From a bacterium (GTDB lineage Bacteria; Babelota; Babeliae; Babelales; GCA-2401785), in contig JABIAA010000050.1 in NCBI GenBank assembly GCA_018656485.1, forward strand, positions 1-44,378: 44,378 nucleotides of DNA. Reading direction: 5' to 3'. This document shows, in pieces, positions 355 through 43,134 of the stretch. The notes beneath the pieces were generated by a model. It was not told the DNA's origin and ran no database searches. It saw nothing but the letters and a program-made list of their open reading frames with translations. Both the position numbers and the translations under genes were made by a program. Every line of letters begins with the position of its first letter. Positions within the stretch are counted from its first letter, which is position 1.

Positions 355-552
355 GAAGACTGGGAACATTAAGATTCAAGCTTGTTTCACACTGCAAAGA
401 GTTTTTCCCGCTTTTATAGCACTTTCCTGCATTTTTTCAATCGTGGTTGTGCATCCCCCAAATAACGATTAGAATTGCGAGACCTAGAGAAAATAGCGTG
501 GATTCAACGGTTGAATCGCGAAATTTTAAAAAAACAAAACTGGAGTTTTGTA

Positions 553-2286: not shown

Positions 2287-4023
2287 CTACCTGCTCCTTG
2301 AGAACCGCGCGCGTCGCGGCGTTGGTGGAATATTTTTCACCGGAGAACTAGAACGCGGAGAAATGTCATCGTCGGATCCCAGAGACGTTGTTCTTAGAGA
2401 AATACTGCCAAATTCCGGAATCCGAAATTTTGACTTTGATGAGACTGCTTTTGAAGGTAGACCCGCATCGAAATCTCTAACCTTGGTCAGATCTTTTTTA
2501 AAGCCAATCCTCCCTCGCTCCACTCGAACTTGTTGAGGTTTTTTCAAGATTCCCCGCGGTGCTTGTAGCGAACTTTGCAGAACAATTTTGGCTGGCTCAC
2601 TCCAAGCTTCACGTGGGCGTCGAGTCTTTTCATATTTGAGAAATCTGTTCCAAGCTTCGTCATGCAGCTCGAAATCATCTGCACCTAAAGATCTATTGTT
2701 CCGGAGCTCCTCGAGCTCTTTTTGTGCCGCACGAATTTTCTTAAATTGAACAATCGCAACAGGCTTTGATTCTTCTTCTGACATTTTTTTGATCTCAATG
2801 CGCCCCAGCTCTTCAAGCCAGTCGGCATATCGACTTTCGCGATCAACCGCATCACTCCACAGCTGCGCCCGAGAGCCCGCCTTCTTCGCAACGTTAGAAA
2901 CTCCAGCCCGAATAACCTCAAGTTGATGTCCCGCTTCATGGTCAACTGAAGCAAGACCCGGCAGCCTTCCACTAATTTTTTCCACTGACGTCTCCACGTC
3001 CGCCCACCTTCTGGATTTTGACAACTCAGGGAGCCTCGGCTGTTCTGCAAAATTTGAATTGCGCTCAATATCGACTAATTGTTTTTCAAATGACCCGATT
3101 AAATCATATGCTATCGCAGTTTCGGGAATAAGCTTCCCGGTCGCGTCCTTTGCTCTCGCAGCTGACGTTCTTGGCGAAGCGCTTGGTGACGGAACTTCGT
3201 CCGGAGCCTCAGTCATCTTCATGCGAACTTTCGACGCAGGAATGTCGTTCCCATAAGCAAACATCAAAAGATCCGGATTGGCCGATGGATTTTCATTTCC
3301 GAGAAATTTTCTTGCGCCCTCAAAAATAAACGCCGCCGCTTTTTCTTGGGACATCCCACCGCGGAATTTTTCGCCAATTTTTCTTCCAATCTCTTTGTCA
3401 CCAAAAGATTTTGCAATTGCAGTAAGCGCCTCTAGCCCCGATCGGTTGGAAATCCGCTCAAGCAACTCGAACTGCCACTTCGCGACCATGTCAATTTTCT
3501 GACGCGGAACCCTATCCGACCCACCCACCTGGGCATCCAAGATCTGTTTGTACTTAATTCCCTTGGCAATGTCGGCAAGTGCCTTAAATTTTCCATAGCC
3601 ATCGTAACCGCTGGCGGCTCTGGCAATAACTTTTGGGTATGTTCGAAGAAACCCCCATAATCCGCTCTCTTCCATAATCTCTGGAACTCTTTCGGCCCAA
3701 AGAACCTCTCTTTCCGTGCCAGGCTTCTCCGCCGCTTGCTCTTCCACGGTCTTGCCACTTTTGACCGCAGCCGCCCCATCGACCAGCGCACGAAAAATCT
3801 TCCTGTACGTCCTTCGAGCAATTGGATCCTCTCCAAGTTTTTTCTTCATCCAAAAACTTTCTAGAACCTTCTTTGCTCCGCCAAGGTCATAACCCCGAAC
3901 CGCAGTTTCAAAATCTGCCGACAGCTCGTCTTTGGCTACGGGCTTAGGACTTGGGCTATCCGGCGGTTGAGCCAAAATCACCGTCGAAAAAAATATCAGA
4001 AATAAAAAATTTAATCGTTTCAT
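2287..4023 (-). CDS. hypothetical secreted protein (about 578 aa)
   Basis: ATG at 4023 lies 9 nt after AGGA and 12 nt after the stop of the upstream MltA-like gene. The signal peptide is MKRLNFLFLIFFSTVILAQPP. The C-terminus is basic and Ser/Pro/Arg-rich. No family recognised. Confidence 0.7.
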   Translation of the reverse strand: MKRLNFLFLIFFSTVILAQPPDSPSPKPVAKDELSADFETAVRGYDLGGAKKVLESFWMKKKLGEDPIARRTYRKIFRALVDGAAAVKSGKTVEEQAAEKPGTEREVLWAERVPEIMEESGLWGFLRTYPKVIARAASGYDGYGKFKALADIAKGIKYKQILDAQVGGSDRVPRQKIDMVAKWQFELLERISNRSGLEALTAIAKSFGDKEIGRKIGEKFRGGMSQEKAAAFIFEGARKFLGNENPSANPDLLMFAYGNDIPASKVRMKMTEAPDEVPSPSASPRTSAARAKDATGKLIPETAIAYDLIGSFEKQLVDIERNSNFAEQPRLPELSKSRRWADVETSVEKISGRLPGLASVDHEAGHQLEVIRAGVSNVAKKAGSRAQLWSDAVDRESRYADWLEELGRIEIKKMSEEESKPVAIVQFKKIRAAQKELEELRNNRSLGADDFELHDEAWNRFLKYEKTRRPREAWSEPAKIVLQSSLQAPRGILKKPQQVRVERGRIGFKKDLTKVRDFDAGLPSKAVSSKSKFRIPEFGSISLRTTSLGSDDDISPRSSSPVKNIPPTPRRARFSRSR

Positions 4024-4034
4024 CGCCACATCCT

Positions 4035-10129: not shown

Positions 10130-10858
10130 ATGACAACTTCAATCTTTCCACAAATCATGGCAATGTTCGCCCAGCTGCTACCGGCGTTCATTTTGGTTTT
10201 TTCGTTTTACGGCTTTTCACGCGCACTTGCTGCAAAACTTATGGGTGACCACACTGCGCAACATGAGGGTTTTTTAACGCTGAACCCAGCGGCACATATC
10301 GACATCTTTGGAATGCTCATCACCCTGGCAATCTTTGTAGTCGTCAACACACTTATCTCTGGCGGATTAGCTTTTCCAATCATTATTGCGATTTTAATTT
10401 TAATCGGTGCGCGCTGGCGCAAAATTGTCCCTATCAATGAGGAAATGTTCAGACATCACAGGCTAGGAATTCTTGCCACGACACTCGCAGGACCCATCGG
10501 ATCTTTCTTCTTAACTTTCCTGTCATGCGTCGCAATTAGATTTTTCCCAATCCAAGCCGTTTCTGCTCCAGTCGGAAAAACGGTGACACAGCTACTGGGA
10601 ACGATCACCGAACTTAGCGCGTTCTGGGGAGTTTTGGAACTTATTCCATTTCCACCATTTGACGGCGGACGACTTCTACAAGTTGTTTTGCCTCGGTCGA
10701 AAGAATGGATCATTGAGTGGTTCGAGATATACGGAGTTTTCGTTTTTTTAGCGCTCATTATTTTGCCAGGGGTAAGCACAATATTCATCGGCGGCCTGCA
10801 CACACTCGCAACAATTGTTAAACTTATCGCACTTAAGATCGCTTTCATTGGAGCCTAA
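10130..10858 (+). CDS. site-2 protease (peptidase M50B)-like membrane protein lacking the HExxH motif
   Basis: LMGDHTAQHEGFLTLNPAAHIDIFG and LIPFPPFDGG match family signatures (GDPTA..G..TLNP..H.D, NL.P..PLDGG). The position of HExxH reads YGFSRAL. Confidence 0.75.
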   Translation: MTTSIFPQIMAMFAQLLPAFILVFSFYGFSRALAAKLMGDHTAQHEGFLTLNPAAHIDIFGMLITLAIFVVVNTLISGGLAFPIIIAILILIGARWRKIVPINEEMFRHHRLGILATTLAGPIGSFFLTFLSCVAIRFFPIQAVSAPVGKTVTQLLGTITELSAFWGVLELIPFPPFDGGRLLQVVLPRSKEWIIEWFEIYGVFVFLALIILPGVSTIFIGGLHTLATIVKLIALKIAFIGA

Positions 10859-10873
10859 CCCAGGAGTCTCGTA

Positions 10874-12067
10874 ATGATTTCTCCAGAAGAACAAATCAAA
10901 ACACTTCAAGTTGGCACCGAACAGATTCTCCCAAAAGAAGAGTTGAGGAAAAAGCTAAAGCGCGGAAAACCGCTCATTGTAAAATTTGGTGCGGATCCAA
11001 CTGCACCGGACCTGCATCTTGGGCACGCCGTCGTACTTTCCAAGTTGCGACAGTTCCAGGACCTAGGGCACAAAATTGTTTTCCTCATTGGTGATTTTAC
11101 AACGAAGATTGGTGACCCGAGCGGTCGATCAAAAACACGTCCACCGCTGAGCGACAAAGAAATTAAACAAAATGCAGAAACATACTTCACACAGGTTGCA
11201 AAAATTTTAGATCCCAAGAAAACTGAAATCGTCTACAACTCCACATGGCTCAACAAAATGATGTTGTCGGACATCCTAAAACTTCTTGGGAAGGTCACCG
11301 TCGCACGAATCATCGAACGAGAAGATTTCAAAAACAGGCTAGACAAAAATCTACCGCTCGGCTCTCACGAACTGTTGTACCCGCTGTTGCAGGGCTACGA
11401 CTCCGTTGAGTTGAAGGCTGACCTAGAGCTTGGTGGAAGTGATCAAACTTTTAACCTTCTCATGGGTCGACACCTTCAAGAACAATACGATCAAGAACCG
11501 CAAGTTGTTATGACTTTCCCCTTGCTTGAGGGAACCGACGGTGTCGAAAAAATGTCCAAGAGTTACAACAACTACATCGGGCTTTTCGAGACAGCTGAAA
11601 ACGCATTCGGAAAATTGATGTCCATTTCTGACGACCTCATGTTCAGGTACTCATTACTCCTTTTGCATACATCAAACGAAGAAATCGAAAAACAGAAAAA
11701 AGAAATCGCATCTGGTTCTTTGCACCCAATGGACCACAAGAAAAAAATTGCGCACACCATCGTCACAAAATTCTGGTCCAAAGAAGAGGCGGACAAGGGG
11801 CTTGAACACTTTAAGTCAATCTTCCAAAAGAAAGATTACGAACAAGCAACCGAGGTCAAAGTCAGTGGACTTGAAAGTCCGTGCTGGATCGTTGATCTTT
11901 TGAAGACTACAGGCGCTGTGACAACATCATCGCAGGCAAAACAACTCATCGAAGCTGGTGCGGTTACAATCGACGACGTCAAGGTCGCCGACTTCAAGGC
12001 AACAGTCAAATGGAAAGCCGGCTCAATCATTAAAGCAGGTAAAAAGAAAATTATAAAAATTAGCTAG
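10874..12067 (+). CDS. tyrS: tyrosine--tRNA ligase
   Basis: Class I HIGH motif (DLHLGHAV), KMSKS motif (EKMSKSYNN), a GGSDQ motif and a C-terminal S4-like domain. Length is 397 aa. Confidence 0.93.
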   Translation: MISPEEQIKTLQVGTEQILPKEELRKKLKRGKPLIVKFGADPTAPDLHLGHAVVLSKLRQFQDLGHKIVFLIGDFTTKIGDPSGRSKTRPPLSDKEIKQNAETYFTQVAKILDPKKTEIVYNSTWLNKMMLSDILKLLGKVTVARIIEREDFKNRLDKNLPLGSHELLYPLLQGYDSVELKADLELGGSDQTFNLLMGRHLQEQYDQEPQVVMTFPLLEGTDGVEKMSKSYNNYIGLFETAENAFGKLMSISDDLMFRYSLLLLHTSNEEIEKQKKEIASGSLHPMDHKKKIAHTIVTKFWSKEEADKGLEHFKSIFQKKDYEQATEVKVSGLESPCWIVDLLKTTGAVTTSSQAKQLIEAGAVTIDDVKVADFKATVKWKAGSIIKAGKKKIIKIS

Positions 12068-13095
12068 GCAATTCCAACCTCACCACACACTTCGAGCTCG
12101 ACTTTGATCACGTTGTCTGCAGCCGCGAGAAACTTGTCCCAACGCTCTTCATCCCAAGAGGACAAACAATCCGCTTCGTATGACGGATAACCGCTAAGCC
12201 AAATTCCCACTAGGCCATCCCAGACATCTTCGAAGGTGTCTCGCAAAGAAGCAGTATGTGGATTTTCTAAGCTTGCAGCTCGTGAGGCTTCCCACACATA
12301 AAGAATCATTTCAGCAAGTCGCTCATTGTACCACAGACGTTTTAAACCACCAGAAAGTTCTTCTGTTTCAATTGGTTCATATCCAAGTCCACAAATAATT
12401 GCTGAAGCTTTTTTTTGAACTTCTTTTGCACGATCAGCGCCTAAAAAATCGCAGGCTACTTTTGAAACATCGAGTAGTTTGTTGTCAATAACAAGAGTGT
12501 GCTGTTTGTGAAATGCACGAAGAGACATATTTACAAACATTGCCTCGAGCAAAAAGTCTTGTGCGTCCTGCGTGGAGAGATTCAAGCCCAGGCCATCAAG
12601 ACAACCTAAAACTTCAGAAAACTTACTTCGAATCTTGGCATTTAATTTTTTGTACATCAAAGCAACGCAACCACAAGCCGCTGCTGCAAACAAAGAGAAA
12701 CCAACGATCGGTTTCCACGTCAGCGCCTTGGCACCCTTAGGAACACTCATGATTCCATTTTTTTGCAAAGCAGCACAGATCCCAAGCGCAACGGGGCTGA
12801 TAATTGCCCCCCCGGCGAATGCATATTTTTCAAACTTATCCACCCTTGCAAGCGCTGGATATTCTGGCGTGTGAAATTTCACCCAAGCCTTTGTAAATCC
12901 GTTGATCTTCTCAAACAGCTCTTGCTGAAGATCTTTCTCCTCAAGTGCTTGGTAAATTTTTGCACTATCGCTGGCTTGTCCTGAACAAAGAAACTTTGAT
13001 GCGGCAAATTCAGAAATTTTGATTTCGGCGGGGCTAAAAGAAACACACGACTGCGATGCAGCACAAAAAAGTATTGCAAGTTTTAGAAACTTCAT
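12064..13095 (-). CDS. secreted/membrane protein with a central paired hydrophobic hairpin
   Basis: TGGAG RBS. The signal peptide is MKFLKLAILFCAASQSCVS. Two TM-like segments (FAGGAIISPVALGICAAL and IVGFSLFAAAACGCVALMY) are separated by 19 aa. The stop overlaps the tyrS stop within CTAG. Confidence 0.7.
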   Translation of the reverse strand: MKFLKLAILFCAASQSCVSFSPAEIKISEFAASKFLCSGQASDSAKIYQALEEKDLQQELFEKINGFTKAWVKFHTPEYPALARVDKFEKYAFAGGAIISPVALGICAALQKNGIMSVPKGAKALTWKPIVGFSLFAAAACGCVALMYKKLNAKIRSKFSEVLGCLDGLGLNLSTQDAQDFLLEAMFVNMSLRAFHKQHTLVIDNKLLDVSKVACDFLGADRAKEVQKKASAIICGLGYEPIETEELSGGLKRLWYNERLAEMILYVWEASRAASLENPHTASLRDTFEDVWDGLVGIWLSGYPSYEADCLSSWDEERWDKFLAAADNVIKVELEVCGEVGIA

Positions 13096-13170
13096 GGCAA
13101 CTCCAATAAGAAAAATTGTCAGATGCCACAGTTAACAAAAAAAATTGTAAACCGTCAAAAGCTGAAAAGC

Positions 13171-14169
13171 TTATCGCATTGTGACAACTTTAACAAAATC
13201 ATCATACACACAATGACATGGCTGCTCTACGAACATTTTGTAGCCAGCGACAGATCCGGCCATGCACGCGAGAAAACAAATAAGCTCACAACAATTGTAT
13301 CCATTGGGCACCCGGCTGTATAAATCTGTAAAACATTGGAACCGAGTTGCGCCATTATTCTCGTAAGTTGCAATAGAATTAAATATATTTTGCGCCTCAA
13401 AAATCCTTCTGTAGCAACGCCCGCGCCCGACAAGCCTACCGCAATGATCGTGTGCAAAATCAGATAGATCATTTAAAATTTCACACGAAGCGTTCGCCAG
13501 CGCTATTGTGCCGCTCATCAATGCCGCTTTCATTTTTTCGCCAATCTCAATCGCCTTTTTAGCTTTAAGATCAGAAAGACCTAGTTCGTCAAAAAGATTG
13601 AGGACCTCATTGACCACACTAAGAACAATTTTCACACGTGTTTCATCATAAAAATTTAGATTCGACCGCGCCCTTGAAAAAATAAATTCGTACAATGCTA
13701 CGACATCACGTTGCAACTCAATCGGATCATCGTTGGGAATTTCGTTCGACGCTCTGCTACACGAAGCAACCGGCGAACAAGATGCTCCACTGCCGAGGCT
13801 ACTAGCAAGTTGTCCAATGCTAAACGAAATTGGAAGCGCATCGACCACAACTTCATTGCTAAGGAGCTCCATTATAAAATCGTCTTGATGAACCGCAGGA
13901 AGAAGACTTTGAATTCTTGGATCATCTGAATTTTTTAGATGATCATCCATCCAATTCTTGAAGGATCTGAATTTTGCATCGCCAAGCATTTCACGCAATT
14001 TTGTCTTCGCCTTTTTGCGCTTCGCGGCAGTCGCTTCGTTGTAAGAATAAAACGCCATCCTGACTTGCGATTCAAAAGCAGCCCAGCTGATTTTCTCAAC
14101 CGCAAAGGCCCCTGAAACCACAACCAACAAAGCCGGAATTATGCACTTTACAAAATTGGAAATTTTCAT
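13171..14169 (-). CDS. secreted protein, paralog family A, member 1
   Basis: ATG at 14169 gives MKISNFVKCIIPALLVVVSGAFAVEKISW. It is paralogous to the next two genes. The C-terminal tail is Cys-rich and ends VVTMR. Confidence 0.8.
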   Translation of the reverse strand: MKISNFVKCIIPALLVVVSGAFAVEKISWAAFESQVRMAFYSYNEATAAKRKKAKTKLREMLGDAKFRSFKNWMDDHLKNSDDPRIQSLLPAVHQDDFIMELLSNEVVVDALPISFSIGQLASSLGSGASCSPVASCSRASNEIPNDDPIELQRDVVALYEFIFSRARSNLNFYDETRVKIVLSVVNEVLNLFDELGLSDLKAKKAIEIGEKMKAALMSGTIALANASCEILNDLSDFAHDHCGRLVGRGRCYRRIFEAQNIFNSIATYENNGATRFQCFTDLYSRVPNGYNCCELICFLACMAGSVAGYKMFVEQPCHCVYDDFVKVVTMR

Positions 14170-14210
14170 TGATGACTCGTGAAAATAAAATACAATAAAA
14201 AAACAATGGC

Positions 14211-15254
14211 TTATCGCATAACAACAGGATTTCTTGCTAGACAAACTGAACAGTCTCTGCATTCAAAGTAAAAAATCGCTGCATAGATACAAAAGTTCAA
14301 GCTCTTCGTGCCACAACAAATCCTATAATTACAGAAACGCCAAACTGATTCAAATACATCCTTGAAGCATCCAACATGATCACCCGCTTCATTCCTTGTT
14401 ATATCATGAAGGAGTCTATCCGCCTCGAGAAAAACATGTCGGCCATCAAAATTTTTATTCGCGCCCAAAGAACCGGTTGCGTCACGCCCATTTTTTCTCA
14501 TTCTCATAAATTCTTCAAGATCAAAGGCCAGCGTTTCAACAAGTTGTGTAATTTGCGTGTTTTTTGGACTTTCAAACCCCGCAATAAACTCTTGATTTTC
14601 AGCGCTACCTTTTATTTGTTTTATTAATTTCGAAGTAATTTTTCTGATTTTTTTGACATCATCATCTGACAAATCGGGATTAACACAAGTAAGAGAAAAA
14701 ATATTTCCCACCAAAGAAATCAGTAATTTAACTCGTTCATAATCATAAAAAGTGATCCGGTTTTCCACAGCCAAGTCTAATACCACCTTGAAACCATTAG
14801 CCAAACTTTCTCGCAACGATATTTCCGCGGAGGAATCGGCTACATGAGTTTTTTTCATTTTTCTATTTATCAGAACGCTTGAAGAAGCCCCGCCGTGAGA
14901 CCCCACTTGCTCAAAAGCGTCCCCAAATATTTGTGCCTTTGATACATCAACCACTTCACCAAGGAGATCAATAATGCAGCTGTCTTTGTATCCCTCCAAC
15001 ATCAAAGATTGAATTGACGAATTATTAATCTGATGTTCGAGAACCCAATCTTTGAAAAAAATAAATTTTTCTTCCCCCAATATCCTACGCAGTCCTTCTG
15101 AAGCTTTTTGACGCGCCTCTACATCACCATGGGAAAAAGCCATCGAGACCTTCAACTCAAATTCATCCCAACAAACCTTTTCAACGGCATAAATCTCCGA
15201 AAACAAAAAATATAAGATTAGTGTAATGGATTTTATAAATTGGATTTTTTTCAT
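14211..15254 (-). CDS. secreted protein, paralog family A, member 2
   Basis: ATG at 15254 gives MKKIQFIKSITLILYFLFSEIYAVEKVCW. Shared blocks include ITFYDYERVKLLISLVGN. The Cys-rich tail ends PVVMR. Confidence 0.8.
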   Translation of the reverse strand: MKKIQFIKSITLILYFLFSEIYAVEKVCWDEFELKVSMAFSHGDVEARQKASEGLRRILGEEKFIFFKDWVLEHQINNSSIQSLMLEGYKDSCIIDLLGEVVDVSKAQIFGDAFEQVGSHGGASSSVLINRKMKKTHVADSSAEISLRESLANGFKVVLDLAVENRITFYDYERVKLLISLVGNIFSLTCVNPDLSDDDVKKIRKITSKLIKQIKGSAENQEFIAGFESPKNTQITQLVETLAFDLEEFMRMRKNGRDATGSLGANKNFDGRHVFLEADRLLHDITRNEAGDHVGCFKDVFESVWRFCNYRICCGTKSLNFCIYAAIFYFECRDCSVCLARNPVVMR

Positions 15255-15376
15255 TTTCAACTCATACAAATAAATAAAACCAAAAATTAAGACGAAAAAT
15301 TCAACACTGTTTTATAATCAGTCAACAATCGACATAGAAATATAAAATCCCACCGGATTCACACATATGCATTAAT

Positions 15377-16381
15377 CTATTTGCCCCAGAAGACACCCCA
15401 CACAAAGTCTTTCCCAAAAAAGTAGACGTAAGGGAAAAAGTCCAAAGTACCCCAACTTTGATCGCCATAATCTCGTCGATTAGGAAAATTCTTGAACACA
15501 CTGGCACAACCACTTTCTTCATCTTTTTTGATTTCACCAAAGACCCGATTTGCTTCTCGCACTGCCGACAAACCTAAACTTCGCCGCCAACTGAACACTC
15601 GGTATTTCCAACTAACAAACTTCGAAAGGTCCAACATAATTGTTTGTAACGACTCTGAAAGAGAAGGACTTTGTGGATCTTGGAATTCACCAATACATTC
15701 GTAATTTGCAACACTCTTTTGAATTCGATCTATGACTGCCTCACAAATCTCTCTTATTTTGTCGGCCTCATCTTTCGATATGACAATATCGGAACAACCA
15801 AGCCTAAAAACTTTTCCTACCGCAGATAACAAAGCAGAAACTCTGGTACAATCATAAAATGTTAGGCTTGACTCTCTTGCCATATTTAATATCGCGTAAC
15901 ATTTTGCAACCAAGCTTTGCCGCAACGCATCCGGATCATCTTTCTTGATCGTCACGGTTTTGTTGCTACACTTTTTCCTGCAATGAGCCCTATCCCGAGG
16001 AATCAACCCACTATGTAATTCGATTGGATCTGCAACACTATCGATCTCTCGATCCTCTTGAATATCAACCACCTCACCAAGAAGCCTAGTCGCATAATCA
16101 TTTTCACGAACCGAAGAAAGAAGATTTTGTATTCTCGGATCTTTTTCATCTTCTAGGTATTTTTTTAACCACTCTCTAAACGCATCATATCGCCCACCCA
16201 ACATTTTGCGCAATTCAGATTTTGCAGCTTTCCGTTGCCTCTCAACCCAGACCCCAGAGTAAAAAGCCTTATTAACCTGTGCAGAAAAAGCATCCCAACA
16301 GACCTTGTCAACAGCAAAAGCTCCTGAGCCCGCAACCAACAAAATCAGGACAACATATCTTATAAAGCTTGGAATTTTCAT
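15377..16381 (-). CDS. secreted protein, paralog family A, member 3
   Basis: GAGG RBS. The N-terminus is MKIPSFIRYVVLILLVAGSGAFAVDKVCW. Shared blocks include LTFYDCTRVSALLSAVGK. The C-terminus differs from members 1 and 2 and is aromatic-rich. Confidence 0.8.
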   Translation of the reverse strand: MKIPSFIRYVVLILLVAGSGAFAVDKVCWDAFSAQVNKAFYSGVWVERQRKAAKSELRKMLGGRYDAFREWLKKYLEDEKDPRIQNLLSSVRENDYATRLLGEVVDIQEDREIDSVADPIELHSGLIPRDRAHCRKKCSNKTVTIKKDDPDALRQSLVAKCYAILNMARESSLTFYDCTRVSALLSAVGKVFRLGCSDIVISKDEADKIREICEAVIDRIQKSVANYECIGEFQDPQSPSLSESLQTIMLDLSKFVSWKYRVFSWRRSLGLSAVREANRVFGEIKKDEESGCASVFKNFPNRRDYGDQSWGTLDFFPYVYFFGKDFVWGVFWGK

Positions 16382-16398
16382 TTCGGCCTCGTGATCTA

Positions 16399-17196
16399 TT
16401 ATTTTTTACGTTTATTTTTTTTGCTCATACTTTCAATCCCTTTAATAAATTCATTAATGAACGATGAAAAGCATGTACAGCGAGATTCGTGATATGCATC
16501 CAAAACAGAGTCTGCAAAATTCCCACCGGGGTCGATTCCACACCAATCGATTCTGCGATCATCTCCAACATTCCAGTTGCGACGAGACAAAGTTTTAAGC
16601 ACTTTCATCACGCCACTTCTTGTAGCACCAGTCTTTAAAAAATCCATAAGGGTTGGCTCACCAATTGCTTTAGTAGATTCGTAAAGTTCTACAAGTTCAT
16701 CTGGTGTTATAACATCACCAAAAGAATTTGGACTGGGTGGAAGCCCTTGCTTTGCCGCAGCAGAAGTACGAAGCATTCTGTGATCAACCACACTACTGCT
16801 GCACGGACTGCGAACTTCAATCGCTACAAATCCTTCGAGAAGTTTTTTGGAGTTATATCCATCGTTTAATTTTTCGTCCATTTCACCGCTCTCAATTGCG
16901 GGGAAAATATCCTGACTTCGCACGCCACCAACAATGTTGCAATATCGCGTCAACCGATCACAAAACAATTTGCCTTTTTCTCTTCCAAGCACTGTATAAA
17001 TGTTGTCACGAGAAGTTTTCTGATCTCTTTTGAAGCATTTTCCAGGGCTCACAACACACCGATCAAACCAATTTCTAAAAGTCTCGGTGGCAACCGGAAC
17101 CTTTATCGCAGGTGGCCGCTTCGGTTGCGGCGTAGAAAAAATATTGCACGGAAGTGCGAGAAAACACACAAGCGAAATTGATCGAATAGAAATCAT
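16399..17196 (-). CDS. secreted protein, paralog family B, member 1
   Basis: The signal peptide is MISIRSISLVCFLALPCNIFS. The first 11 codons and about 45 nt upstream are almost identical to the next gene. The C-terminus is polybasic (SKKNKRKK). Confidence 0.8.
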   Translation of the reverse strand: MISIRSISLVCFLALPCNIFSTPQPKRPPAIKVPVATETFRNWFDRCVVSPGKCFKRDQKTSRDNIYTVLGREKGKLFCDRLTRYCNIVGGVRSQDIFPAIESGEMDEKLNDGYNSKKLLEGFVAIEVRSPCSSSVVDHRMLRTSAAAKQGLPPSPNSFGDVITPDELVELYESTKAIGEPTLMDFLKTGATRSGVMKVLKTLSRRNWNVGDDRRIDWCGIDPGGNFADSVLDAYHESRCTCFSSFINEFIKGIESMSKKNKRKK

Positions 17197-17274
17197 TCTT
17201 TAATCCCATAAAATATTTTTGTTTTTCAATGTATCAAGCCTTTAAGTCGAATCTGCCCCATCGTTTTTTGCCAC

Positions 17275-18303
17275 TCAATAGCTAGCGATTTTAATAGAAA
17301 GCAGCATGTACTCATAAAAAGTAACACCTGAATTCTTATACGAATCAAGTATAGACTTCGCCTCATCACCGGAAAAACCAACGTCGCCAAAATCTATGTC
17401 GTAATTTCCAAGTGGAACATGTTTATTCAAATCAGCCAAGCGCTGACAAGTGGCAACCACATGACACTTATGCATCGGAAAATCAAGAGGGAACCCAAAA
17501 CCTCCCTTGTTAACTTTAAGGACATCCTGCTTGAAGTTGGCAATGGCACCCTTAGTGTCTAAGATGGGGGGATAGTTCTCAAGGTTACCCATTACCACCA
17601 ACAAATAATCTAAAAAAGGAAGCTCTGACTCTAGATAGCAATCTACCATTCTCTTCGCCCAGTCTGAATCCGGACAAATCCCACAAAATTTTATATCTAG
17701 GCTACCAACCGGAAGAGATCTATTATGGTGCGCCAAAGTACTAAGTACATCAACCATAGTTGGCTTACCTCTAGAATCTAGATGTCGCACAGGACCGAAA
17801 AAACTCGTAACCTCATTCGGATTTAAAGCTCTCACAGACCCTTTGGGCTCTCTTGTAACTCTTGGCCTTGCAACCGCGGCTTCACGCACCTTCCTGTATG
17901 CAGGAAGAGGACTATCTTTTTTCGGAAAATCAACCCTATCATCGAGAAGATCTAAACAACTTTGTCCATCGGCTAGTTCCGCATCAATCCTACCATCACA
18001 GATTGCTGGCATAACATCCTGAATGCGCAGGCCTTCGAATTTTTCACAATATTTCTTTATCCGATCACGAAATGCCCTGCCTTGCTCATCGCCAAGAACC
18101 TTATCAATATTTTTACAAAAAGCTTTGCATTGACCGTCATTAAACTTTGCAGGGCTCACGATACATTCTACCCAATTTTTAAACATCCCCTCCTTCACAG
18201 GGAGTTTTATATTTTCAAGCGGCTTTGTTTTTTTGGGCGCAGAAAAAACATTGCACGAAATTGCGAAAAAACACACAAGCGAAATTGATCGAATAGAAAT
18301 CAT
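17275..18303 (-). CDS. secreted protein, paralog family B, member 2 (internally duplicated C-terminal domain)
   Basis: The signal peptide is MISIRSISLVCFFAISCNVFS. Two copies of a roughly 60-aa module are present (..LPVGSLDIKFCGI..AKRMVDCYLES..FLDYLL and ..VPLGNYDIDFGDV..AKSILDSYKNS..FYEYML). Confidence 0.8.
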   Translation of the reverse strand: MISIRSISLVCFFAISCNVFSAPKKTKPLENIKLPVKEGMFKNWVECIVSPAKFNDGQCKAFCKNIDKVLGDEQGRAFRDRIKKYCEKFEGLRIQDVMPAICDGRIDAELADGQSCLDLLDDRVDFPKKDSPLPAYRKVREAAVARPRVTREPKGSVRALNPNEVTSFFGPVRHLDSRGKPTMVDVLSTLAHHNRSLPVGSLDIKFCGICPDSDWAKRMVDCYLESELPFLDYLLVVMGNLENYPPILDTKGAIANFKQDVLKVNKGGFGFPLDFPMHKCHVVATCQRLADLNKHVPLGNYDIDFGDVGFSGDEAKSILDSYKNSGVTFYEYMLLSIKIASY

Positions 18304-18338
18304 TTTTTAATCCTATAAAATATTTTTGTTTTTTGTAT

Positions 18339-19256
18339 TCAAGCAATCGCTTCAAGCAATCGCTTCTGCTCGAGAAGCAAAGAATCTACGCAATGGAAAA
18401 AATGCTTCTCATCCTCTGGACCATGATAGATCGGAAAAGTTGTATTCCATTCTTTCTGTGCAAAATTATCATCGACAAATTTTGGTTCAAATTGAACCAA
18501 AATCGATTTACCAGGACTGAAATCCCCACTTGCTTTAAACTTAAGGCAACAACTTCCCTTCAATTTATCAATCCCATCGTCTAAATCGATTGCCATTTGC
18601 TGACCAGAAACAACATTGCTCACAAGAGCCGAAACCCCATCCCGAATTATCGATGCAACCGCACGCGTTACAAAACGATCTTCATGCAAAGAATCTACCG
18701 GTGATGAAAGTAAAAAATTTTCGAACAATGCGACGAAGGCTTCGATATCCCTTCTAACAACTGTCTCTTTTTTAGCTTTCTCCGATTTGAAAGCATCCGG
18801 GCTGATCACGCTTAGATCGTTTGGAACAAAGGTTCTGCTTGTTGAGCGACTGCTAGAATTTTGCGGGCTAACCGGTTCCTCAAATTCAATCCGGTCTTCA
18901 ACAAGCCGTTTTAGTTTTTCTCGCCCTTTTAAATCTTCAACCTTAGAGCCTTTCACCGCCTTAAGATCTTTTTCCATCGACGACCAGTTGTATTGCGGAA
19001 AGCTCAAAATCCAATCCACAAAAACGTTAACCCCGTCTTTGCCAAAGTTATCCGCGAGATCAGCCTTCGCTTCCTTGCGAATTTTTTCTGTTTTTCCAAG
19101 ACGAAACCTACGAACAATCCCAGGCAGTGAGCTCAATTTAACTTTTGCGTTACTTGGAATAACAACGCGAATCGGTCTTTGATTTTTTCCAGCACAAACA
19201 TTAAATTGCGAAACAAAAAACATCGAAAGCGTGAGCATTAAAAATTTCTTTAACAT
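18339..19256 (-). CDS. secreted protein, paralog family C, member 1
   Basis: ATG at 19256 lies 7 nt after the stop of member 2, with an AGGAA RBS. A signal peptide is present. The N-terminal ~160 aa are near-identical to member 2. Confidence 0.8.
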   Translation of the reverse strand: MLKKFLMLTLSMFFVSQFNVCAGKNQRPIRVVIPSNAKVKLSSLPGIVRRFRLGKTEKIRKEAKADLADNFGKDGVNVFVDWILSFPQYNWSSMEKDLKAVKGSKVEDLKGREKLKRLVEDRIEFEEPVSPQNSSSRSTSRTFVPNDLSVISPDAFKSEKAKKETVVRRDIEAFVALFENFLLSSPVDSLHEDRFVTRAVASIIRDGVSALVSNVVSGQQMAIDLDDGIDKLKGSCCLKFKASGDFSPGKSILVQFEPKFVDDNFAQKEWNTTFPIYHGPEDEKHFFHCVDSLLLEQKRLLEAIA

Positions 19257-19263
19257 GAAGTTC

Positions 19264-20244
19264 CTAAATTTTTAACGTAAAACTTGAAACGGCCTGCTCA
19301 TATGCTTCTCTCAAACAATCATCAGTCAAAGGCTGCCCACTTTCAATTTTCTGTTTACGAACACCGACAAGCCTTTCGGAAAAAAGAACAAAGTTTGAAA
19401 TCGTAAAAAATGACTGAACGTCACGCGGACCACGGTACAGCGGCCGCTCAGGATCCCACACATCATCAAATTCATCTTCAAATTTCACATTAATAGAATT
19501 TTCTTTGGTGTAATCCCCACTAGCCTTGAAGGCAAGCTCGAAGCTTTCCGCACGCCCATCGAATCTAATAACGGAAGTTTTTCCTGAAACTAACATCGAT
19601 GCAAGCTCATCAATCCTATCAACAAGTTCCGCAATAACCATATATGTTACTGCGCCCCCTCCCGCTTGCGAAGAACGTGGCGTTGCCTCTGCAAAAAAAT
19701 TTGCAAGGCACTCAATAAAATACTTCGCGTCTTTTGCAACAACCTTTTCTTTTCGATAACGCTCAGACCTGAAAGCATCCGGGCTTAGCGCACTTGGATC
19801 GCTTGGAACAAATGTCCTACTGGTAGAGCGATTTCCAGAGTTCAGTGGACTAGCTGTTTCCTCAAATTCTATACAGGCTTCAACAAGTTGTTTTAGCTTT
19901 TCTCGCCCGTTTAAATCTTCAACCTTAGAGCCTTTCACCGCCTTAAGATCATTCTCCATCGACGACCAGTTGTATTGCGGAAAGCTCAAAATCCAATCCA
20001 CAAAAACTTTAACATCTACACCAAAACTACATACGAGATCAGCCTTCGCTTCCTTGCGAATTTTTTCTGTTTTCCCAAGACGAAATCTGCGAACAATCCC
20101 AGACAGTGAGCTTAATTTAACTTTTGCGTTACTTGGAATAACAACGCGAAGAGGCTTGTTGTTTTCTCTATTCCTTCCGGCATTCACATCGAAGGCGCAA
20201 AAAGAAATTGAAAACCAAATGAGAGATAAAATTTTAATTAACAC
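19264..20244 (-). CDS. secreted protein, paralog family C, member 2
   Basis: GTG start at 20244. The signal peptide is MLIKILSLIWFSISFCAFDVNAG. Family motifs FKASGDY and PLYRGP are present. Confidence 0.8.
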   Translation of the reverse strand: MLIKILSLIWFSISFCAFDVNAGRNRENNKPLRVVIPSNAKVKLSSLSGIVRRFRLGKTEKIRKEAKADLVCSFGVDVKVFVDWILSFPQYNWSSMENDLKAVKGSKVEDLNGREKLKQLVEACIEFEETASPLNSGNRSTSRTFVPSDPSALSPDAFRSERYRKEKVVAKDAKYFIECLANFFAEATPRSSQAGGGAVTYMVIAELVDRIDELASMLVSGKTSVIRFDGRAESFELAFKASGDYTKENSINVKFEDEFDDVWDPERPLYRGPRDVQSFFTISNFVLFSERLVGVRKQKIESGQPLTDDCLREAYEQAVSSFTLKI

Positions 20245-20348
20245 AGCAAACCTTTATGAAACCTAATTAAAGTGGTTTCAAAGGTTTACATCGAAAACAA
20301 AATATCGTCAAACAATATTGAGAAAAACATTAAAAATTTATAAAGCTG

Positions 20349-21320
20349 CTACAGCTTGGAAATACAGTTTTGGGAACAATTACAAGTACAGCCATTTTTT
20401 ACAGCGTTCTGCTTTCTAATTCCATCGTATGAAAAACGATAAAAATTGTCCTCTGAGAAAAAACTTTCAGCATCACCTGGGCCACGATACAGCGGAAGAT
20501 TTGGAGAAAAGTTATAGCAACCGCACTCGCCACAAAAAGAAACTCGTATCGATTTTTCAGCGGAATAATCACCAGTCGCGCCAAGACAAAACACAAAAGT
20601 TCTGCCATCATCAACAGGATTTGGCATGGATACCCTTTTCACACCGCCTGAGACAAGCGCATTCGCAATTTCATCAACGAAATTAAACAAGTTCCGAGCT
20701 GCCGCACAATTCTCAGTCTCGAAATCCCCAGACAAATCGACAAAAAATTGCTCTAAACACTTGATAAAGAGCATTACGTCGTCACGGACGACAACTTTTC
20801 TTCTAGAAATCTCTTCTTTTCTTGCTCTATTAATTTTGACAGTTTCAAAATCAAGATAGTCAGGAACTTCTGGAATCCCAGTCGCACGATTTCCCGAATT
20901 CTGTGGACTAGCCTTTTCCTCGAATTCAATTTTGGCGAGAACAATTTGATGAAACTCTTCAACCGGATTATTCTCAGTGCTCATCGCCCAAAGTTCTTTT
21001 TTTATTTGCGACCAATTGTACTGTCCCAAACTCAAAATCCAATCTGTAAAAACTTTAGCGCCACGCTCTCCAAATGAATCAACAAGCTCTCTCTTTGCTC
21101 GTTTCTTTTCATTTACAAAGCCATTACAGAACTCACCAAGGATCGTGGACAGTGAACTCAGTATTATTTTTCCGTTACTTGAAGTTGAAATGCGCGATGG
21201 AGAATGGAACTTAGCCTTTCCCGCCCGAACTACATTATTAGGACCACTTCTTCCGGCATTCACACTGACGGAACAAAAAGAAATTGAAAAACAAATGAGA
21301 GATAAAACTTTAATTAACAC
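20349..21320 (-). CDS. secreted protein, paralog family C, member 3
   Basis: GTG start at 21320. The signal peptide is MLIKVLSLICFSISFCSVSVNAG. Motifs GATGDY and PLYRGP are present. The C-terminus is Cys-rich (NGCTCNCSQNCISKL). Confidence 0.8.
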   Translation of the reverse strand: MLIKVLSLICFSISFCSVSVNAGRSGPNNVVRAGKAKFHSPSRISTSSNGKIILSSLSTILGEFCNGFVNEKKRAKRELVDSFGERGAKVFTDWILSLGQYNWSQIKKELWAMSTENNPVEEFHQIVLAKIEFEEKASPQNSGNRATGIPEVPDYLDFETVKINRARKEEISRRKVVVRDDVMLFIKCLEQFFVDLSGDFETENCAAARNLFNFVDEIANALVSGGVKRVSMPNPVDDGRTFVFCLGATGDYSAEKSIRVSFCGECGCYNFSPNLPLYRGPGDAESFFSEDNFYRFSYDGIRKQNAVKNGCTCNCSQNCISKL

Positions 21321-21435
21321 AGCAAACCTTTATAAAAGCCGGTTAAAGTGGTTTCAAAGGCTTACATCGAAAACAAAATATCGTCAAACAACATTGAAAA
21401 TTATAAAAAATTTACGAGAGAACTTGCTATGGATG

Positions 21436-21503
21436 TAGCCGGCCAGAAGCCCAAAGGGCGAAGAAAGCGAATTTTCATTGGATGTGTTGGTCCAGCCTAC
21501 GCC
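21436..21503. repeat. short dispersed repeat, copy 1 (downstream of the tRNA cluster)
   Basis: It is similar to 21631-21699 (ccggcc..gaagcc...gcgaag.aagcgaattttcattg.a.gt...ggtccag). It contains the 17-mer AGCCCAAAGGGCGAAGA, which also abuts the tRNA-Asp 3' end at 21778-21794. Confidence 0.6.
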
Positions 21504-21630
21504 ATTTAATTATCGCCAAATTTTTTCGAAAAACGATGCAAATTCATGGATCCAGCCAACTGTTCAATCTTGACGGGCTATGGCGGGCAGCCTTCTTTAT
21601 CTAAAAATCTTCTTAGAAAATACCACTACT

Positions 21631-21699
21631 GGCCGTTCCGGCCGAAGCCTTGTGCGAAGTAAGCGAATTTTCATTGAACGTACCGGTCCAGTCTTCGTC
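21631..21699. repeat. short dispersed repeat, copy 2
   Basis: This is an imperfect copy of 21436-21503. Identity appears to be roughly three quarters by eye. Confidence 0.6.
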
Positions 21700-21795
21700 A
21701 AGACTTCGACGGACAGTCTTCTCATTTTGCGAACAATGTTTACTTAAAATTCCACCAAAAGCTGGCGTGCCGGTCGTAGCCCAAAGGGCGAAGAC

Positions 21796-21873
21796 TGGCG
21801 GGGTTGACGGGACTCGAACCCGCGACCTTCCGCGTGACAGGCGGACGCTCTAACCAAACTGAGCTACAACCCC
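21796..21873 (-). tRNA. tRNA-Asp (GTC), CCA encoded
   Basis: The reverse complement folds as a cloverleaf. The acceptor is GGGGTTG/CAACCCC, the anticodon arm is TCCGC-CTGTCAC-GCGGA, the T-loop is TTCGAGT and the 3' end is GCCA. Confidence 0.9.
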
Positions 21874-21924
21874 AAAGACGGTATGCTGCAGTCAAAATCT
21901 GACTTGCATACCCCGAAGGGAAAA

Positions 21925-22000
21925 TGGCTCCCTGGGCGGGACTCGAACCTGCGACCTAACGATTAACAGTCGTGTGCTCTACCAACTGAGCTACCAGGGA
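21925..22000 (-). tRNA. tRNA-Asn (GTT), CCA encoded
   Basis: The acceptor is TCCCTGG/CCAGGGA, the anticodon loop is CTGTTAA, the T-loop is TTCGAGT and the 3' end is GCCA. Confidence 0.9.
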
Positions 22001-22067
22001 ACAAAAATTTCAAAATCCGTGCGGACTTATGGCTGTGCCGGCCGTAGCTCACTTTGTGAGCGAAGGC

Positions 22068-22144
22068 TGGTGGGCGAAACAGGATTCGAACCTGGGACCC
22101 CCTGCTTGTAAGGCAGGGGCTCTAACCAGCTGAGCTATTCGCCC
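22068..22144 (-). tRNA. tRNA-Val (TAC), CCA encoded
   Basis: The acceptor is GGGCGAA/TTCGCCC, the anticodon arm is CCTGC-CTTACAA-GCAGG, the T-loop is TTCGAAT and the 3' end is ACCA. Confidence 0.9.
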
Positions 22145-40242: not shown

Positions 40243-40803
40243 ATGAAACGTATTATTGCTCCAATGGTCGCTATCGCGATGTTCGCAGGAATGGGCTATG
40301 CAGGCGGAGACGATGCACCAAAGGCAGAAAAAACCCCTTGGGCACCTGAGTGGAGACATCACAGTGTTGACACCCTCGGAGCTTTTACAACTCTCGCACT
40401 TCTCACACTCAAGGACAATAGCTGGAAATTTGACAAGGGTCTTGTCGACGCATTGAAGGGTCGATTCTCCAACGTTCCAAAAACAGCGACAACACTTGGC
40501 CTGATGGCAGGAACATGGTTCGCCTTAGAACTCCTACAAAACAAAATCGCTAGATCTGGCTGGAAAGTCTACCCTCACACATGGGAAGACACCAAGGCAC
40601 TTGTCAGTGGTGAAAATAAAGCAGCAACGTGGAAGACACTTGGAAAATCATTTGTTGTTCCTTACGGTAAAGCACCAAAGCCACCGAAGGAAAAAGATCC
40701 AGTAGATCCACCAAAAGAAAAAGATGTACCGAAACCTGAAGCCGAACAAAAAGACACAGCTGCGCCAGCACCAGCACCAGCAACAGAAGAAAGCAGCAAA
40801 TAA
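40243..40803 (+). CDS. secreted protein with a Pro/Lys-rich C-terminus
   Basis: GAAGGA RBS. The signal peptide is MKRIIAPMVAIAMFAGMGYAG. The C-terminus reads PKPPKEKDPVDPPKEKDVPKPE. Confidence 0.7.
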   Translation: MKRIIAPMVAIAMFAGMGYAGGDDAPKAEKTPWAPEWRHHSVDTLGAFTTLALLTLKDNSWKFDKGLVDALKGRFSNVPKTATTLGLMAGTWFALELLQNKIARSGWKVYPHTWEDTKALVSGENKAATWKTLGKSFVVPYGKAPKPPKEKDPVDPPKEKDVPKPEAEQKDTAAPAPAPATEESSK

Positions 40804-40859
40804 AAATCTCGGCATTGGTAACTGAAGTGAACTTCTAGTAAGTTTTACTTCGTTAAAAA

Positions 40860-40893
40860 AGAGCTCGGAGCTAAACTCCCGGGCTCTTTTTTT
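40860..40893 (+). terminator. rho-independent terminator
   Basis: AGAGCTCGGAG-loop-CTCCCGGGCTCT is followed by TTTTTTTAT. Confidence 0.7.
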
Positions 40894-41008
40894 ATTTCTT
40901 CTGCAAGCAAAGTTTTCTCCCATTTTTTTAAAGCCTTCACAATAAAAAAAACACTGATACTATTGGGCCAACGCGAACACAATCATTTCACAAAGTGGGG
41001 AAAGACTC

Positions 41009-41680: not shown

Positions 41681-41702
41681 CAATCCAAGATAGTACCTTG
41701 TG

Positions 41703-41737
41703 CCCCAGCAGTGTTACCATTGCTGGGGTTTATTTTA
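41703..41737 (+). terminator. rho-independent terminator
   Basis: CCCCAGCA-gtgttaccat-TGCTGGGG is followed by TTTATTTTAT. Confidence 0.7.
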
Positions 41738-41739
41738 TC

Positions 41740-42297: not shown

Positions 42298-42453
42298 AAA
42301 CCAACTCGTTCATTATTGCAATTGCCCGAAAACATTGTAGCCTTGGTAGCATCAAACTTGGGACCCTAGAACCATCTGGAGCGCTGAGACCGCACACAAT
42401 CTGACAAGCAACTGAATAATTTAATAACCAGATATTTTTTAAAAGGAACGAAG

Positions 42454-43122: not shown

Positions 43123-43134
43123 TAGGCGAAAAAT

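What the first reader, a model, noticed from the sequence alone, without database searches (positions are those of the whole stretch)
18339..20244. Mosaic conservation between family C members 1 and 2: near-identical N-terminal halves and divergent C-terminal halves
C1 residues ~28-160 (about 18780-19175) and C2 residues ~31-163 (about 19760-20155) are almost identical. Long stretches are identical at the DNA level, for example ccagttgtattgcggaaagctcaaaatccaatccacaaaaac. The remaining ~150 aa retain only scattered motifs (FKASGD(F/Y), P.Y.GP..D...FF). The sharp switch suggests either recent gene conversion of the 5' halves or diversifying selection confined to the 3' halves.
Basis: seen in the sequence. 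Interest (0 to 1): 0.65.

Follow-up and report, generated by a model that had tools for sequence, protein, structure and literature searches.

The report
Gene-conversion patch between neighbouring paralogous genes
Two neighbouring copies of an orphan secreted-protein gene in an uncultured Dependentiae-like bacterium share a ~270-390 bp internal stretch that was copied from one to the other long after the genes duplicated; this is ordinary gene conversion in a gene family with no known relatives.

Summary
C1 (18339-19256, -) and C2 (19264-20244, -) share a block at 18780-19171 / 19762-20150 (86% over 392 nt, BLASTN E 5e-132). The quoted 42-mer occurs exactly twice.

The profile is stepwise, in three tiers:
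- Signal peptides: ~50% nt identity.
- Core, C1 codons 30-120: ~91%, or ~94% outside a 10-codon divergent patch.
- C1 codons 121-160: 75% nt identity.
- C-terminal domains: ~46%.

Synonymous divergence steps too. dS is 0.24 in the core, 1.04 in codons 118-160 and above 2 in the 3' part (Fisher p = 5.7e-5). Protein-level selection alone cannot explain this. The core has a younger common ancestry, which points to segmental gene conversion.

C2 is a three-part mosaic. Its promoter, 5'UTR and signal peptide match C3 (88.6% over 167 nt), its N-domain matches C1, and its C-domain is private. The neighbouring pair B1/B2 shows the same 5' homogenisation.

Diversifying selection on the 3' halves is not supported, because dS there is saturated and all three genes are about equidistant.

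The family has no homologue among ~15 billion proteins, no Pfam, PHROG or PDB match, and a poor AF2 model. FtsA, FtsZ and local gene order place the host in Dependentiae (TM6). This is a known mechanism in a new orphan family, so interest is modest.

The parts
18339..19256 (-). C1 gene, 305 aa. Predicted layout: signal peptide, helical N-domain, low-complexity linker, C-terminal helix/sheet domain.
   Evidence: ORF. Paralogy to C2 and C3. dN/dS of 0.25 in the tract shows this frame is the coding one. The layout comes from a low-confidence AF2 model.
19264..20244 (-). C2 gene, 326 aa, GTG start. It lies 7 nt upstream of C1 and is probably co-transcribed with it. It is a three-part mosaic.
20349..21320 (-). 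C3 gene, 323 aa, GTG start. Third family member, used here as the outgroup.
18897..19169 (-). C1 copy of the core conversion tract (codons 30-120, N-terminal helical domain).
   Evidence: Codon-by-codon alignment. dS 0.24. Maximum chi-square 5' breakpoint at 19169.
19879..20148 (-). C2 copy of the core conversion tract (codons 33-122).
19026..19055 (-). Divergent patch inside the tract, C1 codons 68-77 (ADNFGKDGVN). It has about 10-12 nt differences plus a 3-nt indel in 30 nt, and flanks that are at least 95% identical.
   Evidence: Triplet site patterns are mixed here (columns 241-300). dS for codons 68-80 is about 0.89.
20008..20034 (-). The same divergent patch in C2, codons 71-79 (VCSFGVDVK). 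Some residues are shared with C3 (V, S, K).
18780..18896 (-). C1 intermediate tier, codons ~121-160 (end of the N-domain plus the S/N-rich linker). 75% nt identity to C2. Its synonymous divergence is not distinguishable from that of the 3' part by the codon test.
   Evidence: dS 1.04 and dN 0.17. 11/30 identical-aa codons differ. The IEFEE..SP.NS..R motif is also conserved in C3.
19762..19878 (-). C2 intermediate tier, codons ~123-162.
20174..20340 (-). C2 5' module: 96 nt upstream (putative promoter, 5'UTR and RBS) plus the first ~23 codons (signal peptide). 88.6% identical to the C3 module.
   Evidence: C2-C3 codons 2-25 have dS = dN = 0.137, against dS above 1.1 elsewhere. Maximum chi-square 0/200.
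21250..21414 (-). C3 5' module, the partner of the C2 5' module.
17129..17239 (-). B1 5' module (about 43 nt upstream plus the first ~23 codons). 90-93% identical to the B2 module, although the two proteins are only 36% identical.
   Evidence: D7.
18236..18344 (-). B2 5' module, the partner of the B1 module.
20343..20357 (-). Terminator-like hairpin overlapping the C3 stop codon. It suggests that C3 and C2-C1 are separate transcription units.
   Evidence: This is a consensus scan only.

Best explanation
C1, C2 and C3 are old tandem duplicates of a lineage-restricted gene for a Sec-exported protein. The host is an uncultured Dependentiae (TM6)-like bacterium. Long after the duplication, non-reciprocal homologous recombination (interparalog gene conversion) copied about 270 bp, possibly up to 390 bp, between the adjacent genes C1 and C2. 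The copied stretch encodes the helical N-terminal domain. The signal-peptide region and the C-terminal domain kept their old, saturated divergence.

Since that event the tract has accumulated about 6% nucleotide divergence (dS 0.15-0.24). A 10-codon patch inside it either escaped conversion (a discontinuous tract) or diverged again afterwards.

A separate event homogenised the promoter, 5'UTR and signal-peptide module of C2 and C3. A third did the same for B1 and B2. The array therefore evolves by birth-and-death with patchy concerted evolution.

Shown: the stepwise identity, the stepwise dS, and the phylogenetic incongruence along C2. Inferred: the recombination mechanism (presumably RecA-dependent), the direction and number of events, and the role of the proteins. 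I take them to be exported periplasmic, surface or host-directed factors. That rests only on the signal peptides and on what is known of the Dependentiae lifestyle.
For: - Block similarity: 392 nt at 86%, E 5e-132, flanked on both sides by ~50% identity.
- Two-breakpoint maximum chi-square: mismatch 0.127 inside vs 0.502 outside, 0/200 permutations.
- dS step for C1-C2: 0.24 in codons 28-117, 1.19 in codons 2-27, 1.04 in codons 118-160, 2.3 in codons 161-305.
- Synonymous codon differences: 9/76 vs 11/30 vs 21/46; Fisher p = 0.0056 and 5.7e-5.
- The same region is not unusually similar to C3 at silent sites (C1-C3 dS 1.0, C2-C3 dS 1.5). The silent-site identity is therefore specific to the C1-C2 pair, not a family-wide constraint.
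- Site patterns along the triplet switch from C2=C3 (23 of 27 informative sites in the first 60 columns) to C1=C2 (e.g. 28 of 30 in columns 181-240), then become mixed.
- A 3SEQ-like excursion test with C2 as the child of C1 and C3 gives 0/20000 permutations.
- Independent tracts with similar identity occur at the C2/C3 and B1/B2 5' ends. They include non-coding DNA, and in the C2/C3 signal peptide dN = dS = 0.137.
- The sequence is not an assembly artefact. Two other assemblies from other samples are 99.99% and 100% identical across the parts of the region they cover.
- No reverse transcriptase, transposase or integrase was found among the window ORFs scanned against Pfam or NCBIfam.
Against: - No orthologous locus from a related species or strain exists in any collection searched. 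The classical proof of conversion, paralogs more alike within a genome than orthologs between genomes, cannot be made.
- With only three paralogs, the donor and the number of events are undetermined.
- The 5' edge of the C1/C2 tract lies only ~25 nt from the 3' edge of the C2/C3 tract. The C1/C2 event may originally have run to the gene start. It could then have been a single-breakpoint partial duplication or unequal crossover, later overwritten at the 5' end.
- N-domains are somewhat more conserved than C-domains in all pairs (C1-C3 mismatch 0.395 vs 0.556). Part of the contrast is therefore ordinary constraint.
- recA was not seen in the window.
Confidence: 0.8

Rival explanations
1. Chimeric origin by partial duplication or unequal crossover. 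One of C1/C2 was created, or rebuilt, by a single recombination that joined the 5' part of one paralog to the 3' part of another. The divergent signal-peptide end of C2 arose later, when the C3 5' module overwrote it.
For: The C2/C3 5' tract ends at C2 nt ~70 and the C1/C2 tract starts at C2 nt ~97, so they almost abut. C2 behaves as a three-parent mosaic. Tandem arrangement favours unequal exchange.
Against: This needs two events where a two-ended conversion needs one. C1 has no upstream region of its own (7 nt after the C2 stop). The internal unconverted patch and the graded 3' edge look more like a heteroduplex or mismatch-repair product than a clean crossover junction. In outcome it differs from conversion only in detail.
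Confidence: 0.12
2. No recombination. An old duplication was followed by very strong purifying selection on the N-terminal domain and relaxed constraint on the C-terminal domain.
For: The N-domain is the best conserved part in all three pairwise comparisons (C1-C3). Codons 118-160 are conserved at the protein level with high dS (dN/dS 0.17).
Against: Silent sites are also nearly identical in the core (4/36 four-fold sites differ vs 10/21 in the 3' part). C3 does not share that silent-site identity. The non-coding upstream DNA of C2/C3 and B1/B2 shows the same ~90% identity.
Confidence: 0.04
3. A recent whole-gene duplication of C1/C2, followed by diversifying selection or targeted hypermutation of the C-terminal half and the signal peptide.
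For: The step lies close to a predicted domain boundary. Secreted proteins of host-associated bacteria often evolve fast.
Against: Synonymous sites in the 3' half are saturated (dS ~2.3; 21/46 identical-aa codons differ). C1-C2 there is as distant as either gene is from C3. No reverse transcriptase or DGR-like template repeat was found in the window. dN/dS is below 1.
Confidence: 0.03
4. Metagenome assembly artefact, with collapsed or chimeric repeats.
For: The source is a metagenomic contig. Two other assemblies have a contig end inside C2.
Against: The two copies differ at 51 of 392 positions, and the longest exact run is only tens of bases, so assemblers would not collapse them. One independent assembly (L001) reproduces the whole array with no mismatch in it. 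A second (L083) reproduces C1 and the 3' end of C2.
Confidence: 0.01

Closest known systems
[quoted passage not shown] Examples: tufA/tufB, and the adhesin, outer-membrane-protein and antigen families reviewed by Santoyo & Romero 2005 (cited in PMC6053082); M. tuberculosis PE/PPE and antigen loci (PMC13061034, PMC12046097, PMC1762029).
   Same: A segment of two paralogs is far more alike than its flanks, at silent sites too. The tract is a few hundred bp long. The partners are adjacent direct repeats. Different tracts give a mosaic phylogeny along one gene.
   Different: The family here is an orphan with three members. Conversion covers only one domain, or only the 5' regulatory and signal-peptide module, not the full length as in tuf-type concerted evolution (PMC6053082 deals with full-length cases). 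No orthologs are available to date or orient the events.
Cassette-based antigenic variation by segmental gene conversion (Borrelia vlsE/vls, Anaplasma msp2/p44, Neisseria pilE/pilS). From my own knowledge.
   Same: Segmental, non-reciprocal transfer between tandem or clustered paralogs that encode exported proteins of a host-associated bacterium.
   Different: There is no expression-site versus silent-cassette architecture, since all three genes are full length with a start codon and a signal peptide. What is converted is the conserved part, not the variable part. The tract has since diverged by ~6%, so turnover is not rapid. Three assemblies from different samples are identical.
Secreted ORFan repertoire of Dependentiae (Chromulinavorax destructans: 44% of CDS carry a signal peptide, and the secreted set is enriched in ORFans, PMC6561590; TM6 comparative genomics, PMC4776705).
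   Same: Dependentiae-like host. The window is full of signal-peptide proteins without homologues.
   Different: No sequence relation to any described Dependentiae protein. I did not find tandem paralog arrays with conversion tracts described in the passages I read.

Membership tests
Interparalog gene conversion tract | A segment with significantly higher identity than both flanks, bounded by discrete breakpoints | tested here: met
   Mismatch 0.127 vs 0.502. Maximum chi-square 0/200 permutations. Sliding window.
Interparalog gene conversion tract | The drop in divergence is also seen at synonymous or non-coding sites | tested here: met
   dS 0.24 vs 1.0-2.3. 9/76 vs 21/46 synonymous codon differences, p = 5.7e-5. 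The C2/C3 and B1/B2 tracts include non-coding DNA.
Interparalog gene conversion tract | Phylogenetic incongruence between segments of the same gene | tested here: met
   C2 groups with C3 in codons 1-23 and with C1 in codons 33-122. 3SEQ-like test 0/20000.
Interparalog gene conversion tract | Paralogs more similar within a genome than orthologs between related genomes | not testable with these tools
   No homologue of family C outside this organism in 5.8 G clusters, 1.84 G representatives, GTDB genomes or JGI metagenomes.
Interparalog gene conversion tract | Homologous recombination machinery (RecA) in the genome | not tested
   Only a 44 kb contig is available. No recA was seen among the ORFs scanned.
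Cassette-type antigenic variation locus (vls / msp2 / pilS type) | One expressed copy plus promoterless, truncated silent cassettes | tested here: not met
   C1, C2 and C3 are all full-length ORFs with a start codon and a signal peptide.
Cassette-type antigenic variation locus (vls / msp2 / pilS type) | Sequence heterogeneity of the locus within or between populations | tested here: not met
   L001 has 2 mismatches in 20981 nt, both in tRNA-Val, and L083 has 0 in 9255 nt. These are consensus assemblies only; read-level variation was not examined.
Diversity-generating retroelement target | A reverse transcriptase and a template repeat near a 3' variable region | tested here: not met
   No RT domain in the scanned ORFs. 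No extra repeat of the 3' regions. The 3' halves are ~46% identical over ~450 nt, which is not a short adenine-specific variable region.
Polymorphic toxin/effector with a conserved N-terminus and swapped C-terminal domains | Unrelated C-terminal domains after a sharp junction, with cognate immunity genes | tested here: not met
   The C-terminal halves are still homologous and colinear (FKASGD, P.Y.GP.D..FF). No small immunity-like ORF follows them.

The most novel reading that the evidence does not exclude
The 9-gene array (12064-21320) could be a host-interaction gene nursery of a Dependentiae parasite. In this reading, recurrent segmental gene conversion deliberately keeps the export/regulatory 5' modules and the N-terminal domain uniform, while the C-terminal domains are free to diversify. 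That would be a modular 'constant handle, variable head' system of previously unseen secreted effectors, possibly with ongoing low-frequency shuffling detectable only at read level.
Probability: 0.1. Interest if true: 0.5.

Novelty: new member of a known kind. Interest (0 to 1): 0.27.

Why it matters
The finding gives a clean, statistically supported example of domain-sized gene conversion in a tandem family of orphan exported proteins from a poorly known, host-dependent phylum. Three points follow:
- The genes are real. They show dN/dS below 1 and are conserved across samples.
- The N-terminal domain and the 5' export/regulatory modules are the parts being kept alike.
- Recombination between direct repeats is active in this reduced genome.

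It does not reveal a new mechanism. It also does not tell us what the proteins do.

Tried and rejected
**Function searches for family C. All came back empty or spurious.**
- Pfam, PHROGs and a PDB sequence profile (best E 0.024, a flagellin, not credible) gave nothing.
- The AlphaFold2 model from the 3-sequence alignment was poor (pLDDT 52). Foldseek against the PDB found nothing at E <= 0.001.

**Homologue searches.**
- The word-indexed search of 5.8 G clusters returned only C2 itself and C1.
- The exhaustive HMMER profile search of 1.84 G representatives returned only C1 and C3, plus P0004.
- P0004 is a 768-aa eukaryote-type protein made of 11 Cys-rich repeats that look like chitin-binding domains. 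Its score is the sum of 11 weak repeat matches to the 'Y.GP.D..FF' region, so I rejected it as spurious.
- The GTDB genome scan found nothing.
- The JGI metagenome scan returned one locus, L002. Its translation looks to me like a retrotransposon gag-like fragment, so I rejected it.

**Other checks.**
- Families A, B and C share a colinear 'K.AK..L...[LF]G....F..W' stretch at the same distance from the signal peptide. Profile-profile support is weak (hhalign probability 0.3-19%), so the link is left as a possibility.
- Family A is equally orphan.
- Rfam found only the three tRNAs, so no known RNA element explains the conserved 5' modules.
- The antisense ORFs across the tract (18616-19182 +, 19970-20266 +) are not conserved as ORFs between the two copies. 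The substitution pattern also fits the minus-strand frame.
- The direction of conversion could not be inferred. Both genes are equally distant from C3 inside and outside the tract.

Full report
**Setting.** The window is a metagenomic contig. FtsA and FtsZ are most similar (58-59% aa) to those of Candidatus Dependentiae / TM6 MAGs. The ftsA-ftsZ-pgeF gene order is shared with those MAGs.

Between tyrS (10874-12067, +) and a tRNA-Asp/Asn/Val cluster (21796-22144, -) lie nine minus-strand ORFs of 265-363 aa. Most start with a Sec-type signal peptide. BLASTP groups eight of them into three families:
- A: 13171-14262, 14211-15269, 15377-16381
- B: 16399-17196, 17275-18303
- C: C1 18339-19256, C2 19264-20244, C3 20349-21320

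The ninth ORF (12064-13095) has no paralog in the array. The array has lower G+C (0.38-0.42) than the window beyond the tRNA cluster (0.45-0.49).

**The observation.**
- C1 and C2 align at 54% aa overall, but the similarity is concentrated in one block.
- BLASTN gives 18780-19171 ~ 19762-20150, 86% over 392 nt, E 5e-132.
- The quoted 42-mer is exact at 18984 and 19966.
- In 20-codon windows, C1-C2 nucleotide identity is 0.51-0.53 over the signal peptide and jumps to 0.92-0.97 from C1 codon ~28. It falls to 0.70-0.78 in codons 118-160 and to 0.38-0.63 afterwards.
- A two-breakpoint maximum chi-square search places the block at C1 18789-19169 / C2 19771-20148. Mismatch is 0.127 inside and 0.502 outside, and none of 200 codon-column permutations reaches the observed statistic.
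- The profile is therefore stepwise. It is sharp at the 5' edge, within about 10 nt of C1 codon 30, and two-stepped at the 3' side.

- Nei-Gojobori estimates for C1-C2:

| C1 codons | dS | dN |
|---|---|---|
| 2-27 | 1.19 | 0.63 |
| 28-117 | 0.24 | 0.06 |
| 118-160 | 1.04 | 0.17 |
| 161-305 | 2.3 (saturated) | 0.67 |

- Within codons 28-117, dS is 0.19 for codons 28-67 and 0.15 for codons 81-117.
- Counting only codons that encode the same residue in both genes, 9/76 differ in codons 28-117, 11/30 in codons 118-160 and 21/46 in codons 161-305.
- Fisher tests give p = 0.0056 (core vs 118-160) and p = 5.7e-5 (core vs 161-305). Codons 118-160 do not differ from the 3' part (p = 0.48).
- Four-fold sites tell the same story: 4/36, 5/13 and 10/21 differ.
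- In the same codons, neither gene is close to C3 at silent sites (dS 1.0 and 1.5).

Codons 30-120 therefore share a much younger common ancestor in C1 and C2 than the rest of the genes do. Codons 121-160 are conserved mainly at the protein level. They include the motif IEFEE..SP.NS..R, which is also kept in C3. The C-terminal domains are anciently diverged and about equidistant among all three genes (pN 0.44-0.47). This supports gene conversion. It rejects both pure purifying selection and 'recent duplication plus diversifying selection of the 3' half'.

**C2 is a three-part mosaic.**
- Informative sites of the C1/C2/C3 codon alignment run C2=C3 for the first ~30 sites, then C1=C2 for ~110 sites, then become mixed.
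- A 3SEQ-like excursion test with C2 as the recombinant gives 0/20000 permutations.
- The C2=C3 part belongs to a 167-nt stretch (20174-20340 ~ 21250-21414, 88.6%). It comprises 96 nt of upstream DNA and the first ~23 codons.
- In that coding part dN = dS = 0.137, against dS above 1.1 elsewhere. The divergence looks neutral and the shared ancestry young.
- The same pattern is seen in the neighbouring family. B1 and B2 are 36% identical as proteins, yet they share about 110 nt (17129-17239 ~ 18236-18344, 90-93%) covering the 5'UTR and signal peptide.
- Three separate tracts of similar identity in one array point to recurrent recombination between direct repeats.

**Fine structure.**
- Inside the core, C1 codons 68-77 (19026-19055) and C2 codons 71-79 (20008-20034) differ at about 10-12 of 30 nt and by a one-codon indel. 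The flanks are at least 95% identical.
- C2 shares some of these residues with C3. The patch is most simply a stretch that escaped conversion, meaning either a discontinuous tract or two events. Renewed divergence cannot be excluded.
- The low-confidence AF2 model (pLDDT 52) predicts a signal peptide, a helical N-domain (about residues 41-122), a low-confidence linker (123-152) and a helix-plus-sheet C-domain (153-305).
- The core tract thus roughly matches the N-domain, and the divergent part matches the C-domain. This is suggestive only.

**Artefacts.** Two other assemblies from other samples cover the region.
- L001 (ERZ4200974) covers 9264-30244. Its only two mismatches are both in tRNA-Val.
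- L083 (ERZ27237584) covers 10261-19515 with no mismatch.
- The two copies of the tract differ at 51 positions, so repeat collapse is not an issue.

**What the proteins are.**
- Family C has no homologue outside this organism in any collection searched. The only extra hits were spurious.
- It has no Pfam, PHROG or PDB-sequence match and no structural neighbour.
- Family A is equally isolated.
- The signal peptides end in V-x-A | G (VCA|GK, VNA|GR), which I read by eye as signal peptidase I sites.
- In the cultured Dependentiae member Chromulinavorax destructans, 44% of CDS carry signal peptides, and the secreted set is enriched in ORFans thought to act on the host (PMC6561590).
- By analogy, these are probably exported envelope or host-directed proteins. 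That is inference.

**Comparison and novelty.** Segmental gene conversion between bacterial paralogs is well established. Examples are tuf, surface-protein families and the M. tuberculosis antigen families (PMC6053082 and its reference to Santoyo & Romero 2005; PMC13061034; PMC1762029).
- The locus meets the testable criteria for a conversion tract.
- It does not meet those for cassette-type antigenic variation: there are no silent cassettes, and the assemblies are identical.
- It is not a DGR target: no reverse transcriptase or template repeat was found.
- It is not a polymorphic toxin: the C-termini are still homologous.
- This is a new example of a known process, in a previously undescribed orphan family. 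Interest is modest.

Noticed in passing
window 17129-17239 and 18236-18344: B1 and B2 are 36% identical as proteins. They share the 5'UTR plus the first ~23 codons at 90-93% nt identity, including an identical MISIRSISLVCF start. This is a second conversion-like tract, limited to the translation-start and signal-peptide module.
   Followed up: partly
window 20174-20340 and 21250-21414: C2 and C3 share 96 nt of upstream DNA and the signal-peptide codons at 88.6%. The rest of the two genes has dS above 1. A terminator-like hairpin (20343-20357) separates C3 from this module.
   Followed up: partly
window 21430-21800 and 22030-22066: There are short repeated elements between C3 and the tRNA cluster. 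A 47-nt repeat (21458-21504 ~ 21654-21700, 81%) occurs twice. An exact 17-mer, AGCCCAAAGGGCGAAGA, lies at 21448-21464 and at 21778-21794, just 3' of tRNA-Asp. Each forms a small GC hairpin followed by GGCCGG(C/A)AC on the minus strand, and a similar motif follows tRNA-Val. There is no Rfam match. They could be terminators, REP-like elements or remnants of tRNA-flank duplication.
   Followed up: no
window 22095 and 22118 (tRNA-Val, 22068-22144, -): These are the only two differences between the window and the independent assembly L001 over 20981 nt. Both are C vs A on the tRNA sense strand, inside tRNA-Val, and I do not read them as a compensatory pair.
   Followed up: no
window 12064-18303: Families A (13171-14262, 14211-15269, 15377-16381) and B (16399-17196, 17275-18303) and family C share a colinear 'K.AK..L...[LF]G....F..W' stretch at a similar distance from the signal peptide. 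Profile-profile support is weak (hhalign probability 0.3-19%). The whole array may be one very divergent superfamily. The ORFs 13171-14262 and 14211-15269 overlap as listed, so the real start of the former is probably the internal MKISNF... methionine.
   Followed up: partly
window 33183-34199 and 34219-35367: This is another adjacent pair of signal-peptide orphan paralogs (31% aa identity, E 3.5e-45). Many other ORFs in the window (475-2043, 2287-4029, 31817-33025, 40243-43683) also begin with signal peptides and have no Pfam match.
   Followed up: no
L083 and the JGI 3300072015 contig; P0012: Other assemblies of the same organism have a contig end inside the 3' part of C2, about 250-300 nt upstream of C1. 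A JGI variant of the A-family protein at 14211-15269 differs by one residue (G to V), so slight strain variation exists in public data.
   Followed up: partly
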